A stretch of DNA of 64,000 bases, taken from positions 7,650 through 71,649 of the forward strand of contig JAGOLH010000004.1 of the NCBI GenBank assembly GCA_017994175.1, in the 5' to 3' direction. The stretch is from Bacteroidales bacterium. Its GTDB lineage: Bacteria > Bacteroidota > Bacteroidia > Bacteroidales > ML635J-15. Both the position numbers and the translations under genes were made by a program. Below, one piece after another: positions 32,523 through 36,424 of the stretch; the stretch's first letter is position 1, and the number at the start of each line of letters is the position of its first letter. The notes beneath the pieces are model-generated. The model made no database searches. It was not told the origin of the DNA and worked only from the letters and a program-made list of their open reading frames with translations.

Positions 32523-32747
32523 ATGATTAAAGATAAATTAATAACGATTGCCAAGTTCCGATACGAATACAGGGCATATTTGCTGAAAGATAGGCTTTTA
32601 GAAGCCGGTATAGAGTGTGCATTGACCAGTGAATCGGTTTTTAAACTTATAGACGGTGTGATGGTACTTGTAAAAGAATCTGATTTTGCAAGGGCCATGG
32701 AGGTTTATAACGCGCTAAAAGAAAGCTCCGATGATTTTGAGGATTAA
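32523..32747 (+). CDS. small DUF2007-like (putative signal-transducing) protein
   Basis: 74 aa. Pattern IAKFRYEYRAYLLKDRLLEAGIECAL...VLVKESDFARAMEV. Assignment is from memory of the family pattern only. Confidence 0.4.
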   Translation: MIKDKLITIAKFRYEYRAYLLKDRLLEAGIECALTSESVFKLIDGVMVLVKESDFARAMEVYNALKESSDDFED

Positions 32748-35700
32748 ATTCTCTTTTTAAGCTCTTCAATAACTGCTTTTTTACCGGATTCTCTCAATTT
32801 GCGGGCAGTTGCCGTAAAATATTCGTGTTTTATAATGAATTTATATTGAAACCGATTCCAATCTTCAATTGTTTTCACCTTACCACGTTCATACAGCTCT
32901 CTGAATAAGTTTTGTGATACAACAATGAAATCAGTCCTGCCGAGATAATCAAGGTCAGCATCGCAAATTATTTCTTCAAGGTGGTTTTTCGGTTTGGGGG
33001 GCATTTTGGTTGACAGAATCAATGCTTTAATTTTTTGAATCTGCTCAGGTGTGTACCGGTATTTAGGTAAAATATCCTCAGCAAGATTAGCACCCAGGGG
33101 TTCATTGTTATCATAAGAAATCATAAAACCGGCATCATGAAACAATGCGGCTGTTTTTAGCAACAGGAGTTCTTCGTCGGTAACTTTTTCTTCGCGCCCG
33201 ATGTTTTCGACACGGGTGCAAACATTGGTCGTATGTCGAGAGTTATGATAGTACAGATTTTTTGGCAAGTCCGTCTCGAGTTTCTTCATTACGTAGTTCT
33301 CCAAATCGACATACCGAAGAGCCTGAAGTTTGGTATAGAAAAGCTTATTAGGGGTTTTCCCTGTTGAGAACTCCGACAAGTGTTGCTTATACTTCACTAC
33401 AGTAAACATATCCAGATCACCTTTATATTTCACCGCGGTTTTTCCACGGGACTCGCATTCAAAAAAGTCTTTAATATAGTCGAAGGTTGATGAAGAAATA
33501 TTTACTGTACCGCTTATAGCATTACTTTCCATTCTGCTTGCGACATTCACTGTATCGCCCCATATATCGTATTCAATTTTCTGAGCACCTACAACACCTG
33601 CTATTACTGAACCCGTATGAATACCGATACGTATTCTGAAATTACATTTATCCGTTTCGTTGATTTCCTGAATCGCCTCCTGCATTTTTAATGCTGCCAT
33701 TACCACTTCAATCGGGGTGGTTCTGTCGTTGTTTCTCATACCACCTGCACACATATATGCATCACCAATGGTTTTGATTTTATCGATTTCAAATTTTTCG
33801 ATTATATTATCAAAAGAAGAGAATATTTTATTCAATTGAGTAAACAATACTTCGGAATCGGTGGTGGCAGCAATTTTTGTAAACCCCTCAATATCAGCAA
33901 ACAATACTGTGACCCTTTCATATGCTTGTGTCTGAGCTTTCCCTTCTTTTTGAATTTCTTCAGCAGTTCTGTCAGGCAAGAGCTTCTGTACAAGTTTTTG
34001 AGTTTGTTCTTTTTGTCGGATCAACTCATCAGTTCTTTCTGCAACGGTTTGCTCCAGTTTGTTTTTGTCGGTAGCATGTTTCAGCTCATTTAGCTTAAGA
34101 ATCAGATAGATAAAGGATATCAGAAATAAAAAATAAATAACAAAAGCCCACCACCTCATATACAAAGGAATAGGCACAGAGAAAGTAAAACCATGCGACT
34201 CGGTAGTATTACCGAAAATATCTCTGGCCTGGACTTTAAACGTATAGGTTCCCGGAGGAATATATGTGTATTCTTTAAAACTTTCACCGCTCCATTTCGA
34301 CCATTCATCCTGCAACCCCACTAACTGAGTTCGGTAGCTTATTTCCTTGTAGCTGTTGTAGTATAACGCTGTAAATTCGAACCGAATATGATTTTGAGAT
34401 GATTTAAGAACAGGTGTCAATATCTGTTTACCACTTCTATCAAAAAGCTTATTGTTGATTGAATCAGGCAAATCGGTATTATAAATTAAACATAAGGCCT
34501 GTGGTGTTGATGTTTCCATTTTATTGGCTTCATAACGGATAAGCCCATCGAATCCACCAAACCAAACTACATTATTTGAATCGCAGTAAATACTTTCGAT
34601 GTTCCTGTCTTTCAGATTGTTTAACTCATTACTGTGATCGGTAGGATTAAAGTCTTTGTCGTAAGTAATATATCCCGTTTTACGTTCGGAGTTTTTAGTA
34701 TTTGTACTGGAATACCACAATTTACCATCCGCTTGCTCAACAATGGGATAAAATGAAAATACATTGCTGGAATCAGGGGTTTCAAACAACGGGTGCCTAA
34801 TAAATTTCCCGGCATTGTTGTAGTAAACACCACATTGGGTACTGAACAAAATACCTGCTTTAGTACGATACACATCAACCCATGTGAAATTTTCGGGCAG
34901 TCCGTTATTTTCGTCAAACCGCTGAATTTGTGGATTTAACAAGTCTCCTTTTCTGAAATCCAACTTCAGTAAGCCATGATTATCGGACCCCAGCCAGAAA
35001 ACATCTTTTTCGTCGTGCACCATAGTACGTACCTCATAATCGAAGTTTTTAACTTTCCCAACAATATGTAGTGAATCTAATTCTTTACGAAGTACCAGAA
35101 TACCTTGCTCTCCAATACAAAACACAATATCGTCATAGACTTCGCTGACTTTAAGTTTGCGAAACTCTCCCGGTATCGACAACCTTGCTCTTCCCTCTCG
35201 AATAAGTTTATATACTCCTTTTGAAGTAATAATGTATAATTGATTGTCTATAATAATCAGGTCCTGTATCTCGGCAACAACACCTTCAACTTTGGCAAAA
35301 TAGTCTTCGTTGTTTATCAGTTTTTTTGATTTAGCCAAGTTGGTGGTAGTATAGTAGTACAAACCCTGAGTGGAGCCAAAATACATCGTACCATTGTAAC
35401 GAATCATGGTTTTAATTGCGCCGTTAATCCCATAGCTGTTCCCGAAATAGTCAACCGGGGATGGATAATTTACTGAAGTAATTCCGTTATAACTGGTAAC
35501 CCAAAGTTTATTATTCTTGCTTACAAATAAATCAGTAATCCGGTTATCGAGCATCCCGTGGTTTTTATTCATCGAAAAAAGGTACTGTCCGGTTGAACTT
35601 ACGCAAATGATTCCACCGTATTCTGTTCCAACAACAATAGACCCATCTGATAAAGTTATGCCTTTTATATATTGATTTTCCTCCATGAAAGCATCAGCGT

Positions 35701-36424
35701 CGGTTGTGAAGGGAAGTGTTGTTGTTCCATCGAACAGATAAAATCCGCTGGTATTTTCGCATTTAATAAGAATGTTTCTTTCATCTAAAACAAATAAATC
35801 AATAACGTCCCTGTTTTCAGGCAATATCAACTTGGCTACAGGTTGCATAGTTCTTTTATCCGGATCATAAGTAAACAATCCATTACCCTCAATAGAAACA
35901 TATATCTTTTTATTTGCCTTAAAAGCAAGAATTTTATTTTCGGATGAGTAAACCTTTTCTACAACTTCGTCCTTAATATCCAATATCATATTATCCCCCA
36001 AAAACAACACATGATTATTAAAAGCAATGACTTTGTTGATCTGCCCGGGAGAACAACTGGGAGGCAAAGCAAGGTCCTTCATCTCCATCCTGTTGATATA
36101 GGGGGTAATGACACCGATTTTGTTATATCCACCAGCATAAATCAACCCATTTTCGGAGACGTCCAATATCGGTGTACCAATCAGGTGTACCGTTTGCCAT
36201 TCAACATTATTGAACCGGATTATTCTGTTAAGGTTGCCGAAATACAGAAAGCCAAATTTATCTTGGGTTATCGAAAAATTCTGACTTTCGTTTTTGTATT
36301 CTTTTGGTGCATAATTGTAAAAACCCGGCAGTCCGTGTTCAACAAGCTGCGAAAATGCACTTGAAAAACAAATAATTACAAGTGCTGACGTAAAAATAGT
36401 TTTCAATAATCTATACAATATCAC
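32744..36424 (-). CDS. membrane sensor: periplasmic beta-propeller (Reg_prop) + Y_Y_Y domain, TM, class III adenylate cyclase, C-terminal HD domain
   Basis: 1,226 aa. N-terminal signal/TM. Y_Y_Y motif YRTQLVGLQDEWSKWSGESFKEYTYIPPGTYTFKVQARD. TM WWAFVIYFLFLISFIYLILKL. Cyclase core VTVLFADIEGFT...IKTIGDAYMCAGG...RIGIHTGSVIAGVVGAQKIEYDIWGDTVNVASRMES (~33340-33920). HD motif YYHNSRHT...AALFHDAGF...CDADLDYLG (~32750-33260). Start codon is GTG, so the exact start is uncertain. Confidence 0.85.
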   Translation of the reverse strand: MILYRLLKTIFTSALVIICFSSAFSQLVEHGLPGFYNYAPKEYKNESQNFSITQDKFGFLYFGNLNRIIRFNNVEWQTVHLIGTPILDVSENGLIYAGGYNKIGVITPYINRMEMKDLALPPSCSPGQINKVIAFNNHVLFLGDNMILDIKDEVVEKVYSSENKILAFKANKKIYVSIEGNGLFTYDPDKRTMQPVAKLILPENRDVIDLFVLDERNILIKCENTSGFYLFDGTTTLPFTTDADAFMEENQYIKGITLSDGSIVVGTEYGGIICVSSTGQYLFSMNKNHGMLDNRITDLFVSKNNKLWVTSYNGITSVNYPSPVDYFGNSYGINGAIKTMIRYNGTMYFGSTQGLYYYTTTNLAKSKKLINNEDYFAKVEGVVAEIQDLIIIDNQLYIITSKGVYKLIREGRARLSIPGEFRKLKVSEVYDDIVFCIGEQGILVLRKELDSLHIVGKVKNFDYEVRTMVHDEKDVFWLGSDNHGLLKLDFRKGDLLNPQIQRFDENNGLPENFTWVDVYRTKAGILFSTQCGVYYNNAGKFIRHPLFETPDSSNVFSFYPIVEQADGKLWYSSTNTKNSERKTGYITYDKDFNPTDHSNELNNLKDRNIESIYCDSNNVVWFGGFDGLIRYEANKMETSTPQALCLIYNTDLPDSINNKLFDRSGKQILTPVLKSSQNHIRFEFTALYYNSYKEISYRTQLVGLQDEWSKWSGESFKEYTYIPPGTYTFKVQARDIFGNTTESHGFTFSVPIPLYMRWWAFVIYFLFLISFIYLILKLNELKHATDKNKLEQTVAERTDELIRQKEQTQKLVQKLLPDRTAEEIQKEGKAQTQAYERVTVLFADIEGFTKIAATTDSEVLFTQLNKIFSSFDNIIEKFEIDKIKTIGDAYMCAGGMRNNDRTTPIEVVMAALKMQEAIQEINETDKCNFRIRIGIHTGSVIAGVVGAQKIEYDIWGDTVNVASRMESNAISGTVNISSSTFDYIKDFFECESRGKTAVKYKGDLDMFTVVKYKQHLSEFSTGKTPNKLFYTKLQALRYVDLENYVMKKLETDLPKNLYYHNSRHTTNVCTRVENIGREEKVTDEELLLLKTAALFHDAGFMISYDNNEPLGANLAEDILPKYRYTPEQIQKIKALILSTKMPPKPKNHLEEIICDADLDYLGRTDFIVVSQNLFRELYERGKVKTIEDWNRFQYKFIIKHEYFTATARKLRESGKKAVIEELKKRI

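What the first reader, a model, noticed from the sequence alone, without database searches (positions are those of the whole stretch)
32744..36424. HTCS-type periplasmic sensor (beta-propeller + Y_Y_Y) wired to a class III adenylate cyclase and an HD domain instead of a kinase/AraC output
Seen in sequence: the N-terminal ~750 aa look like the Reg_prop propeller plus Y_Y_Y module (YTYIPPGTYTFKVQARD). After a single TM and a coiled coil comes a complete class III cyclase core. It has both metal Asp (FADIEGF, IGDAYM), the adenine-specifying Lys (IKTIGDAY) and Asp (EYDIWGD), and the transition-state Asn/Arg (TVNVASRMES), so ATP is the predicted substrate. An HD phosphohydrolase domain (YHNSRHT ... 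FHDAGF ... DADLDYLG) follows. Established knowledge: in Bacteroidota this sensor module normally heads hybrid two-component systems that sense glycans. Inference: extracytoplasmic (possibly glycan) sensing may be converted here into a cyclic-nucleotide signal. The fused HD domain could act as a built-in hydrolase or as an effector. The Crp/Fnr protein at 794-1495 lacks the canonical R(S/T)A phosphate-binding Arg (it has PACTSV), so it is not an obvious cAMP receptor.
Basis: partly seen in the sequence, partly recalled or inferred. Interest (0 to 1): 0.55.

Follow-up and report, generated by a model that had tools for sequence, protein, structure and literature searches.

The report
Periplasmic-sensor adenylate cyclase with fused HD hydrolase
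This gene encodes a membrane receptor whose outside part resembles the sugar sensors of gut Bacteroides, while its inside part joins a cAMP-making enzyme to a probable cAMP-destroying enzyme; it belongs to a large but unstudied protein family in a bacterial phylum long thought to make little use of cAMP.

Summary
ORF 32744-36424 (minus strand, 1226 aa) has an N-terminal signal or anchor segment. Its periplasmic region is homologous end to end to the BT4663 sensor of a hybrid two-component system (HTCS): double propeller plus Y_Y_Y. Then come one TM helix, a long helix, a class IIIa cyclase with every catalytic and adenine-specifying residue, and a compact C-terminal HD domain with an intact H..H..HD..D set.

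It is not a one-off. The cyclase-HD cassette is widespread in Bacteroidota behind varied inputs: propeller, TPR, dCache, a single TM, or none. At least 68 of the 150 best 50%-identity representatives of this HD family are cyclase-HD proteins of 1100 aa or more. No paper or curated family describes it, and NCBI calls this protein 'hypothetical'.

New evidence favours a built-in cAMP phosphodiesterase:
- The same HD family is fused to canonical cNMP-binding domains.
- Some subfamilies have a degenerate cyclase and others a degenerate HD, as in GGDEF-EAL proteins.

Fold and sequence place the HD between YpgQ-type HD hydrolases and class I PDEs, so the substrate remains inferred. Glycan sensing is unsupported, because no polysaccharide-utilisation locus (PUL) is nearby. 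Tandem USP genes flank many relatives, though not this gene, and are candidate cAMP receivers.

Verdict: a new variant of a known kind, of moderate interest.

The parts
32744..36424 (-). Whole gene: receptor-type adenylate cyclase with a C-terminal HD domain (1226 aa, stop codon included)
   Evidence: ORF list. An identical protein, P0001, was read on 14 metagenome/MAG contigs. NCBI calls it 'hypothetical protein [Bacteroidales bacterium]'.
36350..36424 (-). N-terminal hydrophobic segment (residues ~1-25): signal peptide or membrane anchor
   Evidence: Kyte-Doolittle maxima at residues 1-28. The sequence ends ...SSAFSQ before the conserved sensor begins.
34157..36349 (-). Periplasmic sensor (residues ~26-756): HTCS-type double beta-propeller followed by a Y_Y_Y domain (Y_Y_Y = residues 689-743, window 34196-34360)
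   Evidence: Pfam Reg_prop and Y_Y_Y. The single sequence matches 3V9F at E 2e-11. The family profile matches 4A2L (BT4663) over 5-756 at E 6e-63, and also matches 3V9F and 3OTT/3VA6.
34088..34156 (-). Single transmembrane helix (residues ~757-779, WWAFVIYFLFLISFIYLILKL)
   Evidence: Strongest hydrophobic window of the protein, 2.47 at residue 760. P753 just before it is invariant and the flanking residues Y755, A760 and Y764 are at least 90% conserved.
33935..34087 (-). Cytoplasmic helical linker (residues ~780-830): a long helix plus a short helix ending in LLPDRTAEEIQKEGK, like the helical domain / cyclase-transducer element of class IIIa cyclases
   Evidence: AlphaFold model of residues 780-1226 gives helices 781-815 and 818-827. 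The family profile aligns from position 802 with the helical domain plus catalytic domain of mycobacterial Cya (5O5K, 4P2F). L811, L816 and P817 are invariant.
33398..33934 (-). Class III (IIIa) nucleotidyl cyclase catalytic domain (residues 831-1009), predicted to be ATP-specific
   Evidence: Pfam Guanylate_cyc at 188 bits. It matches both the C1 and C2 halves of mammalian AC8/AC5/AC9 and also Rv1625c/Cya. D844, D888 (metal), K884, D953 (adenine), N960, R964 (transition state), R932 and K999 (phosphates) are invariant in the family.
32747..33367 (-). C-terminal HD-superfamily phosphohydrolase domain with its leading helix (residues 1020-1226); motifs YYHNSRHT, FHDAGF, CDADLDYLGR
   Evidence: Pfam HD at 25.7 bits when scanned alone. 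AlphaFold pLDDT 92.6, all-helical. Foldseek top hits are YpgQ 5DQW/5DQV, 3B57 and 2PQ7, then PDE5/PDE4. The profile against PDB gives 2PQ7 at 2e-6, YedJ at 4e-4 and PDE5 at 0.03. The conserved H1060, H1064, H1096, D1097 and D1155 are shown.
32523..32747 (+). Small convergent gene (74 aa, DUF2007 'putative signal transducing protein') overlapping the 3' end of the cyclase gene by 4 nt; a possible but unproven partner
   Evidence: Pfam DUF2007 at 25.7 bits, equal to the cut-off. A homologous small convergent gene follows the homologues P0011 and P0014 (45% and 41% identity), the latter in otherwise different surroundings. It is absent after P0003.

Best explanation
The gene encodes a homodimeric, single-pass receptor adenylate cyclase with a fused hydrolase. 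A periplasmic double-propeller/Y_Y_Y sensor of the BT4663 type binds an unknown extracytoplasmic ligand. The resulting change in dimer geometry passes through the single TM helix and a long cytoplasmic helix to a class IIIa cyclase dimer, which converts ATP to 3',5'-cAMP. The fused C-terminal HD domain is a metal-dependent phosphohydrolase that most likely hydrolyses the same messenger to 5'-AMP. The protein would then both make and remove cAMP, in the manner of GGDEF-EAL proteins, Rel/SpoT or plant CAPE. That arrangement would give sharp or reciprocal control of a local cAMP pool. Shown here: the domain identities, intact catalytic residues, the fold of the HD domain, and the spread and modularity of the cassette. 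Inferred: the ligand, the transmembrane mechanism, the cyclase product, and above all the HD substrate.
For: Sensor: end-to-end profile homology to 4A2L/3V9F plus Pfam Reg_prop and Y_Y_Y. Cyclase: Pfam E 1e-55. The domain aligns with both the C1 and C2 halves of mammalian ACs and with Rv1625c/Cya, including its helical domain. All eight catalytic or specificity residues are invariant in 21 family members and in nearly all 80 related loci. HD domain: confident all-helical model (pLDDT 92.6), Foldseek probability 1.00 to HD hydrolases and to PDE5/PDE4 catalytic domains, and conserved H..H..HD..D. Links between this HD family and cyclic nucleotides: (a) it sits directly after a cyclase in most of its best representatives. 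(b) HD domains 44-48% identical to this one are fused to cNMP-binding domains with the canonical FGE...RSA cassette. Examples are HD + cNMP_binding + SpoIIE (P0415, P0361) and MFS + HEAT + cNMP_binding + HD (P0354). (c) Degeneracy is reciprocal. Soluble ~430-470 aa forms have lost the first metal Asp and other cyclase residues but keep the HD set. A ~600 aa two-TM group and P0020 keep the cyclase but have lost the HD dyad. This is the pattern seen in enzymes that make and break one messenger. (d) 54 of 60 family HD domains give weak PDEase_I matches over the YHNxxH region (best E 1.5e-4), and most relatives carry HDxxH. The cytoplasmic half models as one compact unit (pTM 0.81). Precedent for an AC+PDE fusion: CAPE (PMC5159850).
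Against: No enzymology exists for any member. The closest solved relatives of the HD domain by sequence and fold are YpgQ/YedJ/2PQ7-type small HD hydrolases, not PDEs. To my knowledge YpgQ is a nucleoside-triphosphate pyrophosphohydrolase. The PDEase_I score is far below Pfam's cut-off (9.9-13.9 against 24.8 bits). The domain is about half the size of a class I PDE catalytic domain. The window protein has HDAGF rather than HDxxH. Fusion to cNMP-binding domains could equally mean that the HD is an output regulated by cNMP rather than a PDE. Stand-alone homologues sit next to a small histidine kinase with no cyclase nearby. No canonical cAMP receptor is encoded in the 64 kb window.
Confidence: 0.5

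Rival explanations
1. The cyclase makes cAMP, but the HD domain acts on a different nucleotide. It could be a YpgQ-like (d)NTP pyrophosphohydrolase, or a hydrolase of (p)ppGpp, Ap4A or 2',3'-cNMP. The fusion would then couple cAMP synthesis to a second nucleotide-hydrolysing output rather than to removal of the signal.
For: The best Foldseek and PDB-profile matches are YpgQ, Lin1889, 2PQ7 and YedJ. The domain size and motif spacing resemble that group. 43 of 60 members give weak Ppx-GppA_III matches, and some JGI records are named exopolyphosphatase/pppGpp-phosphohydrolase. Stand-alone ~198 aa homologues occur without a neighbouring cyclase.
Against: This does not explain why the HD family is repeatedly fused to cyclases and to canonical cNMP-binding domains. 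It also does not explain the reciprocal loss of catalytic residues in the cyclase or the HD. The structural matches to YpgQ are only moderate (TM ~0.6-0.7, 17-21% identity), and PDE5 hits are interleaved with them.
Confidence: 0.25
2. The HD domain is mainly a non-catalytic regulatory or dimerisation module. It might bind a nucleotide or a metal and tune the cyclase, with no relevant hydrolase activity of its own.
For: Whole subfamilies keep the domain after losing the H/HD/D residues: P0020, L022, L029, L033, L036, L038, L039 and L046. So the fold has a role that does not need catalysis. The cytoplasmic half models as one compact unit.
Against: In the window protein and in most relatives every metal ligand and about 40 further positions of the domain are invariant or nearly so. 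This points to selection on an active site. Degenerate copies alongside active ones are also usual for true enzyme pairs such as GGDEF-EAL.
Confidence: 0.1
3. The cyclase domain is inactive, or it produces a messenger other than cAMP such as cGMP, cCMP or cUMP.
For: No assay exists. Bacteroides species were long reported to lack adenylate cyclases (census of the first four Bacteroidetes genomes, PMC1183210).
Against: The Lys-Asp adenine-specifying pair (K884/D953), both metal Asp, the Asn/Arg pair and the phosphate-binding R932/K999 are all present and invariant. The closest solved homologues are bona fide adenylate cyclases.
Confidence: 0.07
4. On the input side only: the sensor recognises a glycan breakdown product, as HTCS sensors do, and the protein reports polysaccharide availability through cAMP. 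This is compatible with the main explanation but is a separate claim.
For: The fold and sequence are homologous to the heparin-sensing BT4663 and other Bacteroides HTCS sensors.
Against: No SusC/SusD, CAZyme or other PUL genes lie next to this gene or next to four homologues. The neighbours are HydF, NadB, a C10 peptidase, DUF2007 and a USP. The nearest sensor relatives outside the cyclase family carry SpoIIE, GAF-kinase or LuxR outputs rather than the AraC-type HTCS output. In Flavobacteriales and Chitinophagales relatives a ferritin gene lies 6-31 nt upstream on the same strand, which hints at quite different inputs.
Confidence: 0.2

Closest known systems
Bacteroides hybrid two-component systems (e.g. 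BT4663; PDB 4A2L/4A2M, 3V9F)
   Same: The periplasmic region has the same layout (double propeller plus Y_Y_Y) and is followed by a TM helix. Profile homology runs over the whole 750 aa. Both are expected to signal as dimers.
   Different: There is no HisKA/HATPase, receiver or AraC domain, and no adjacent PUL. The output is a nucleotide cyclase plus an HD domain.
Rv1625c/Cya of Mycobacterium tuberculosis and mammalian membrane adenylate cyclases (class IIIa)
   Same: The catalytic domain has the full residue set and a preceding helical domain. It aligns with both C1 and C2. It is predicted to be a homodimer, like Cya.
   Different: The membrane part is one TM helix carrying a large periplasmic sensor, not a 6-TM bundle. 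An HD domain is added at the C-terminus.
CAPE (combined adenylyl cyclase with phosphodiesterase) of Marchantia and other streptophytes (PMC5159850, PMC8115329)
   Same: One polypeptide joins a class III adenylate cyclase to an HD-superfamily phosphodiesterase-type domain.
   Different: CAPE has a full-size class I PDE at the N-terminus, is eukaryotic and has no periplasmic sensor. Here the HD domain is compact (~190 aa), C-terminal and not a Pfam PDEase_I member.
YpgQ / YedJ / 2PQ7-type small HD phosphohydrolases
   Same: These are the best structural and sequence matches of the HD domain. They share its size and the HxxxH...HD...D layout.
   Different: Identity is only 17-21%. Those proteins are stand-alone. 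The present family has its own invariant positions and motifs (E at YDxxE, T1139, the DxDLDYLGRxD motif, H1200) and is fused to cyclases or cNMP-binding domains.
GGDEF-EAL / GGDEF-HD-GYP composite proteins and Rel/SpoT
   Same: A synthase and an (HD-type) hydrolase of one nucleotide messenger sit on one chain, and subfamilies occur in which one of the two domains is degenerate.
   Different: The messenger and the folds differ. The analogy is functional and is inferred, not shown.

Membership tests
Class III nucleotidyl cyclase (adenylate cyclase, subclass IIIa) | Guanylate_cyc catalytic fold above the Pfam threshold | tested here: met
   188 bits against a cut-off of 21.9; strong matches to solved ACs.
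Class III nucleotidyl cyclase (adenylate cyclase, subclass IIIa) | Two metal-binding Asp, transition-state Asn and Arg, and phosphate-binding Arg/Lys, all in one chain (homodimer type) | tested here: met
   D844, D888, N960, R964, R932 and K999 are present and invariant in the family.
Class III nucleotidyl cyclase (adenylate cyclase, subclass IIIa) | Lys/Asp pair that specifies adenine | tested here: met
   K884 (IKTIGD) and D953 (YDIWGD) align with the C2 Lys/Asp of mammalian ACs.
Class III nucleotidyl cyclase (adenylate cyclase, subclass IIIa) | Formation of cAMP from ATP | not testable with these tools
   Needs an enzyme assay or cya complementation.
Hybrid two-component system (HTCS) | Periplasmic Reg_prop double propeller plus Y_Y_Y sensor | tested here: met
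Hybrid two-component system (HTCS) | HisKA/HATPase kinase, receiver and AraC DNA-binding domains in the same chain | tested here: not met
   None is found by Pfam or NCBIfam. The cytoplasmic part is fully accounted for by helix, cyclase and HD.
Hybrid two-component system (HTCS) | Gene adjacent to the polysaccharide-utilisation locus it controls | tested here: not met
   No SusC/SusD or CAZyme genes in the neighbourhood here or in homologous loci.
HD superfamily of metal-dependent phosphohydrolases | H...HD...D metal-ligand motif | tested here: met
   H1064, H1096-D1097 and D1155 are present and conserved, plus H1060.
HD superfamily of metal-dependent phosphohydrolases | All-alpha HD fold / Pfam HD threshold | tested here: met
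   AlphaFold pLDDT 92.6 with eleven helices. Foldseek probability 1.00 to HD hydrolases. Pfam HD scores 25.7 bits against 22 for the domain alone, and 21.7 in the full-length scan.
Class I cyclic-nucleotide phosphodiesterase (Pfam PDEase_I) | PDEase_I profile above the gathering score | tested here: not met
   9.9-13.9 bits against 24.8. Only profile positions 1-45 match.
Class I cyclic-nucleotide phosphodiesterase (Pfam PDEase_I) | Signature motifs YHNxxH and HDxxH | tested here: inconclusive
   YHNSRH is present. The window protein has HDAGF, whereas most relatives have HDAGH. HxxxH also occurs in YedJ/2PQ7.
Class I cyclic-nucleotide phosphodiesterase (Pfam PDEase_I) | Catalytic domain of ~270-330 aa | tested here: not met
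   The domain here is ~190 aa. The TM-score normalised to PDE targets is only 0.36-0.48.
YpgQ/YedJ-type HD nucleotide pyrophosphohydrolases | Sequence or fold membership | tested here: inconclusive
   These are the best hits, but they are weak: 2PQ7 at E 2e-6, YedJ at 4e-4, YpgQ at 0.065 by profile, and TM 0.6-0.7 with 17-21% identity. No NCBIfam model claims the domain.
YpgQ/YedJ-type HD nucleotide pyrophosphohydrolases | Mn-dependent hydrolysis of (d)NTP to (d)NMP + PPi | not testable with these tools
   Needs an enzyme assay.

The most novel reading that the evidence does not exclude
The cyclase-HD cassette is a self-contained switch that both makes and breaks cAMP. Its compact HD domain would represent a previously unrecognised class of bacterial 3',5'-cNMP phosphodiesterase. 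Throughout Bacteroidota this cassette would be plugged into periplasmic double-propeller, TPR, Cache and other sensors, with tandem USP proteins and cNMP-binding SpoIIE phosphatases reading the signal. That would define a cAMP signalling network in a phylum classically regarded as lacking cAMP-CRP signalling.
Probability: 0.33. Interest if true: 0.7.

Novelty: new variant of a known kind. Interest (0 to 1): 0.5.

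Why it matters
Receptor-type class III cyclases are well known. A bacterial cyclase permanently fused to an HD hydrolase is not described in any paper I could search, and no curated family covers it. Yet the HD family has 1150 clusters at 50% identity with E of 1e-30 or better, and most of its best-scoring representatives are cyclase fusions, spread across Bacteroidales, Marinilabiliales-type, Flavobacteriales, Chitinophagales and Cytophagales genomes.

If the HD domain is a cAMP phosphodiesterase, three things follow:
- It adds a new compact PDE type.
- It gives a bacterial counterpart to plant CAPE and to GGDEF-EAL logic.
- It shows that many Bacteroidota, including gut and rumen Bacteroidales, convert envelope signals into cAMP. 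That would revise the textbook view drawn from Bacteroides fragilis and B. thetaiotaomicron.

The question is directly testable, because cultured relatives exist (Marinifilum sp. D737, Carboxylicivirga mesophila JCM 18290, Taibaiella koreensis).

Tried and rejected
1. Literature. Nine full-text searches found no description of a cyclase-HD fusion or of a propeller-sensor cyclase. They covered adenylate cyclase + HD domain + Bacteroidetes/Bacteroidota, Reg_prop + Guanylate_cyc, CYCc + HDc, class III cyclase architectures, and HD-CE. The only useful returns were analogies (CAPE; cAMP binding by a USP) and the 2005 census.

2. Filing the protein as an HTCS. Rejected, because the kinase, receiver and AraC domains and the PUL context are all absent.

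3. Filing the HD domain as a class I PDE. Rejected on the Pfam score and on domain size. Filing it as YpgQ-type remains inconclusive.

4. Looking for a functional partner in the window. The immediate neighbours (HydF-like GTPase, NadB, C10 peptidase) look like lineage synteny. tblastn finds no USP homologue in the window. The only cNMP_binding protein in the window (794-1495) has a non-canonical cassette.

5. Context of a stand-alone HD homologue (P0362). It sits next to a small histidine kinase, which is uninformative.

6. NCBIfam gave only meaningless sub-threshold hits.

7. I did not model the periplasmic domain. No inter-domain error estimates are returned, so the cyclase-HD packing cannot be judged beyond pTM 0.81.

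8. The USP association could partly reflect shared ancestry of the HD-bearing clade rather than independent events. I treat it as a lead only.

Full report
**1. What is there**

The same protein was read on 14 metagenome or MAG contigs of up to 139 kb. NCBI labels it 'hypothetical protein [Bacteroidales bacterium]'.

Pfam finds four domains:

| Domain | Residues | Score |
|---|---|---|
| Reg_prop | repeats (best 604-625) | 36.8 bits |
| Y_Y_Y | 689-743 | 40 bits |
| Guanylate_cyc | 831-1009 | 188 bits, E 1e-55 |
| HD | 1063-1157 | 21.7 bits in the full protein (cut-off 22); 25.7 bits scanned alone |

Hydrophobicity shows an N-terminal hydrophobic segment and one strong internal TM helix at about 757-779.

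**2. The sensor**

The single sequence matches only the second propeller plus Y_Y_Y of PDB 3V9F (E 2e-11). A profile built from the 21 full-length relatives does much better. It matches the periplasmic domain of the heparin-sensing HTCS BT4663 (4A2L) over profile positions 5-756 (E 6e-63). It also matches 3V9F (7e-58) and 3OTT/3VA6.

The module is promiscuous, however. After the cyclase family itself, the closest sensor relatives carry SpoIIE, GAF-HisKA, GerE/LuxR, LytS-type kinase or MCP outputs. AraC-type HTCS appear only at E ~1e-17.

There is no PUL context. The neighbours here are a HydF-like GTPase, L-aspartate oxidase, a T9SS C10 peptidase, an ECF sigma factor, LeuRS and lipid A genes. 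Homologous loci are likewise free of SusC/SusD. A glycan ligand is possible, but nothing here supports it.

**3. The cyclase**

The domain aligns with both the C1 and C2 halves of mammalian AC8, AC5 and AC9, and with Rv1625c/Cya. It combines the catalytic residues that the two mammalian halves divide between them:
- Metal binding: D844 (FADIEGF) and D888 (IGDAYM).
- Phosphate binding: R932 (RIGIHTG) and K999.
- Adenine-specifying pair: K884 (IKTIGD) and D953 (YDIWGD).
- Transition state: N960 and R964 (TVNVASRMES).

All of these are invariant in the 21-member family and in almost every related locus. The profile alignment to Cya starts at position 802, so it includes the helical domain that drives productive dimerisation (PMC5699072). 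AlphaFold models residues 781-815 as one long helix followed by a short one. This is a homodimeric class IIIa enzyme predicted to use ATP.

**4. The HD domain**

Modelled with 60 relatives, residues 1020-1226 form a confident all-helical domain (pLDDT 92.6, pTM 0.89).

Foldseek against the PDB returns two interleaved groups, all at TM ~0.6 and 15-21% identity:
- YpgQ (5DQW/5DQV), Lin1889 (3B57), 2PJQ and 2PQ7.
- PDE5 and PDE4 catalytic domains.

The sequence profile finds 2PQ7 (2e-6), YedJ (4e-4) and PDE5/PDE9 (~0.03). Of 60 members, 60 match Pfam HD and 54 match PDEase_I weakly, and only over the YHNxxH region. No NCBIfam model claims the domain.

The metal ligands are conserved: H1064, H1096-D1097 and D1155, plus H1060, E1108, T1139, D1157, D1159, R1163 and H1200. 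It is not a class I PDE by Pfam score or by size. It also cannot be assigned to the YpgQ group with confidence.

**5. How common is it**

*Genomes.* A scan of one genome per GTDB species found the cyclase-HD pair in many lineages: Bacteroidales, Marinifilum, Carboxylicivirga, Rikenellaceae, Crocinitomicaceae, Taishania, Fluviicola, Taibaiella and Flectobacillus.

*Architectures.* Pfam scans of representatives show a modular cassette:

| Input | Output | Examples |
|---|---|---|
| Reg_prop + Y_Y_Y | cyclase-HD | L013, L026, P0270, P0338, this protein |
| TPR | cyclase-HD | L024, L047 |
| dCache | cyclase-HD | P0253 |
| Y_Y_Y only | cyclase-HD | L018 |
| one TM | cyclase-HD | L011 |
| none | cyclase-HD | L019 |
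| Reg_prop + Y_Y_Y | cyclase without HD | L050, L061 |
| Reg_prop + Y_Y_Y + PAS | cyclase without HD | L085 |

*Family size.* An exhaustive HMM search with the HD profile against 1.84 billion 50%-identity representatives gave 5802 hits at E <= 1e-3 and 1150 at E <= 1e-30. Of the best 150, at least 68 are cyclase-HD proteins of 1100 aa or more with the HD at the extreme C-terminus. The window protein is thus a typical member of a large, unnamed family.

*Literature.* Nine literature searches found nothing on this family. The 2005 signalling census noted that the first four Bacteroidetes genomes had no adenylate cyclases at all (PMC1183210).

**6. Evidence on what the HD domain does**

Three observations tie this HD family to cyclic nucleotides.

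1. It is overwhelmingly found right after a cyclase.
2. HD domains 48% and 44% identical to the window's are fused to cNMP-binding domains with a textbook phosphate-binding cassette.
   - P0415 and P0361 are HD + cNMP_binding + SpoIIE. P0415 carries the cassette FFGELSLLDTEPRSASV.
   - P0354 is MFS + HEAT + cNMP_binding + HD, with the cassette FFGEFSLLDSIPRSASV.
3. Catalytic residues are lost reciprocally.
   - Soluble 430-470 aa forms (L019, L040, L062) have FANIHGF or YSNIVGF in place of FADIxGF. L040 and L062 have also lost D953 and R932. All three keep a perfect HD set.
   - A ~600 aa two-TM Bacteroidales group (L022, L029, L033, L036, L046) and P0020 keep a perfect cyclase but read LF, LS or LL where HD should be.

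This third pattern is the one known from GGDEF-EAL composites, where one half often becomes a regulatory pseudo-enzyme. Together these observations make 'HD = hydrolase of the cyclase product' the most economical reading. They do not prove it. An HD output regulated by cNMP, or a YpgQ-like NTP hydrolase, remains possible.

**7. Likely mechanism**

The steps and their standing are as follows.

| Step | Basis |
|---|---|
| Ligand binding to the periplasmic propeller dimer changes the spacing or angle of the C-terminal Y_Y_Y/TM segments | From memory, not checked here: this was proposed for BT4663 |
| The single TM and the 35-residue helix transmit the change to the cyclase dimer, whose two active sites lie at the interface | Established for class III cyclases; inferred here |
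| ATP is converted to cAMP + PPi | Predicted from residues |
| The HD domain hydrolyses cAMP to AMP | Inferred |

I put the cyclase assignment at ~0.85. I put a catalytically active HD at ~0.8 and cAMP as its substrate at ~0.5.

**8. Downstream**

The window encodes no canonical cAMP receptor.

Relatives offer a lead. A tandem universal-stress-protein gene (~275 aa, PF00582) lies next to the cyclase-HD gene on the opposite strand in 15 loci overall, across input types and orders. Among the genome-scan loci that could be scored, the counts were 13 of 38 HD-bearing loci against 1 of 36 without a called HD (Fisher p = 6e-4). The single exception, L031, turned out to carry an HD segment in another frame. 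This test is not corrected for phylogeny. A mycobacterial USP binds cAMP (PMC11107214), so these USPs are candidate receivers. tblastn finds no USP in this window.

A 74-aa DUF2007 gene converges on the cyclase gene and overlaps it by 4 nt here. It recurs after two homologues. That is weaker evidence, because convergent genes are not co-transcribed.

**9. Comparison and verdict**

- The protein works like a receptor adenylate cyclase of the Rv1625c/Cya kind, with the sensor of an HTCS and the make-and-break logic of CAPE or GGDEF-EAL proteins.
- It is a member of the class III cyclases and of the HD superfamily.
- It is not an HTCS and not a Pfam class I PDE.
The architecture is common rather than exceptional, and glycan sensing is unsupported.
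- Novelty: a new variant of a known kind, namely an unstudied, widespread bacterial cyclase-HD family.
- Interest: moderate (0.5). It rises to about 0.7 if the HD domain proves to be a new type of cAMP phosphodiesterase at the centre of a Bacteroidota cAMP network.

Noticed in passing
window 32523-32747 (+): A 74-aa DUF2007 ('putative prokaryotic signal transducing protein') gene converges on the cyclase gene and overlaps its last 4 nt. Homologous small convergent genes follow the homologues in L006 and L007 (45% and 41% identity), although L007 has otherwise different neighbours. The gene is absent in L005.
   Followed up: partly
L007:7131-7955, L009:2044-2874, L010:2036-2866, L011:1887-2714, L013:6319-7143, L018:1871-2704, L024:4518-5345, L026:6959-7780 and others: A tandem universal-stress-protein gene (~275 aa, Pfam Usp) lies beside cyclase-HD genes, on the opposite strand in all but one locus (L031, same strand), in 15 loci of different orders and with different sensor domains. 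It is not seen beside HD-less cyclases, and tblastn finds none in this window. It may be a cAMP receiver, since the mycobacterial USP Rv1636 binds cAMP.
   Followed up: partly
L016:869-1387, L021:2433-2990, L025:572-1090, L026:2425-2961, L028:694-1212, L032:199-723, L035:721-1236: In the ~1300-aa propeller-cyclase-HD genes of Flavobacteriales and Chitinophagales, a ferritin gene sits 6-31 nt upstream on the same strand and is probably co-transcribed. This hints at an iron or redox link rather than a glycan one.
   Followed up: no
L019, L040, L062 (degenerate cyclase); L022, L029, L033, L036, L038, L039, L046 and P0020 (degenerate HD): Catalytic residues are lost reciprocally within the cyclase-HD family. 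Soluble forms have lost the first metal Asp of the cyclase but keep the HD set. A two-TM group keeps the cyclase but has lost the HD dyad.
   Followed up: yes
P0415, P0361, P0354 (metagenomic Bacteroidota proteins): The same HD family occurs as HD + canonical cNMP_binding + SpoIIE phosphatase, and as MFS + HEAT + cNMP_binding + HD. This implies cNMP-controlled partner-switching or phosphatase outputs in Bacteroidota.
   Followed up: partly
window 794-1495 (-): A Crp/Fnr-family regulator has a good cNMP_binding domain score, but its cassette (FGYRSIMNGEPACTSV) lacks the cAMP-contacting Glu and Arg. It also has an N-terminal CxxC (CKDC). It is probably not a cAMP receptor and may be Fnr-like.
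   Followed up: partly
window 9403-20787 (+) and 5209-9339 (+): A 3794-aa SprB-repeat protein with a CHU_C type IX secretion signal looks like a gliding-motility adhesin. It is preceded by a 1376-aa MAM/fn3/P-domain protein with a Por_Secre_tail. Several other T9SS cargo genes are in the window: 28610-30790 (C10 peptidase), 51051-53255 (CotH kinase + lamin-tail domain) and 59216-61114 (FG-GAP).
   Followed up: no
window 38936-44373 (-): Three co-directional genes lie here: an LPP20-domain lipoprotein of 458 aa, then proteins of 454 aa and 878 aa with no Pfam match at E <= 1e-6. The arrangement is the same on the other contigs that carry this gene (L001-L004). Function unknown.
   Followed up: no
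window 44516-45745 (+): A second, unrelated HD protein (weak HD match plus HD_assoc_2, 409 aa) lies next to the lpxD-lpxC/fabZ-lpxA cluster. It is not related to the cyclase-fused HD family.
   Followed up: no
window 24915-26610 (-) and 62531-63942 (-): Other signalling genes in the window: an ECF sigma factor followed by a 392-aa protein of unknown function (possibly its anti-sigma factor), and a LytTR response regulator with a LytS-type His_kinase fragment at the window edge.
   Followed up: no
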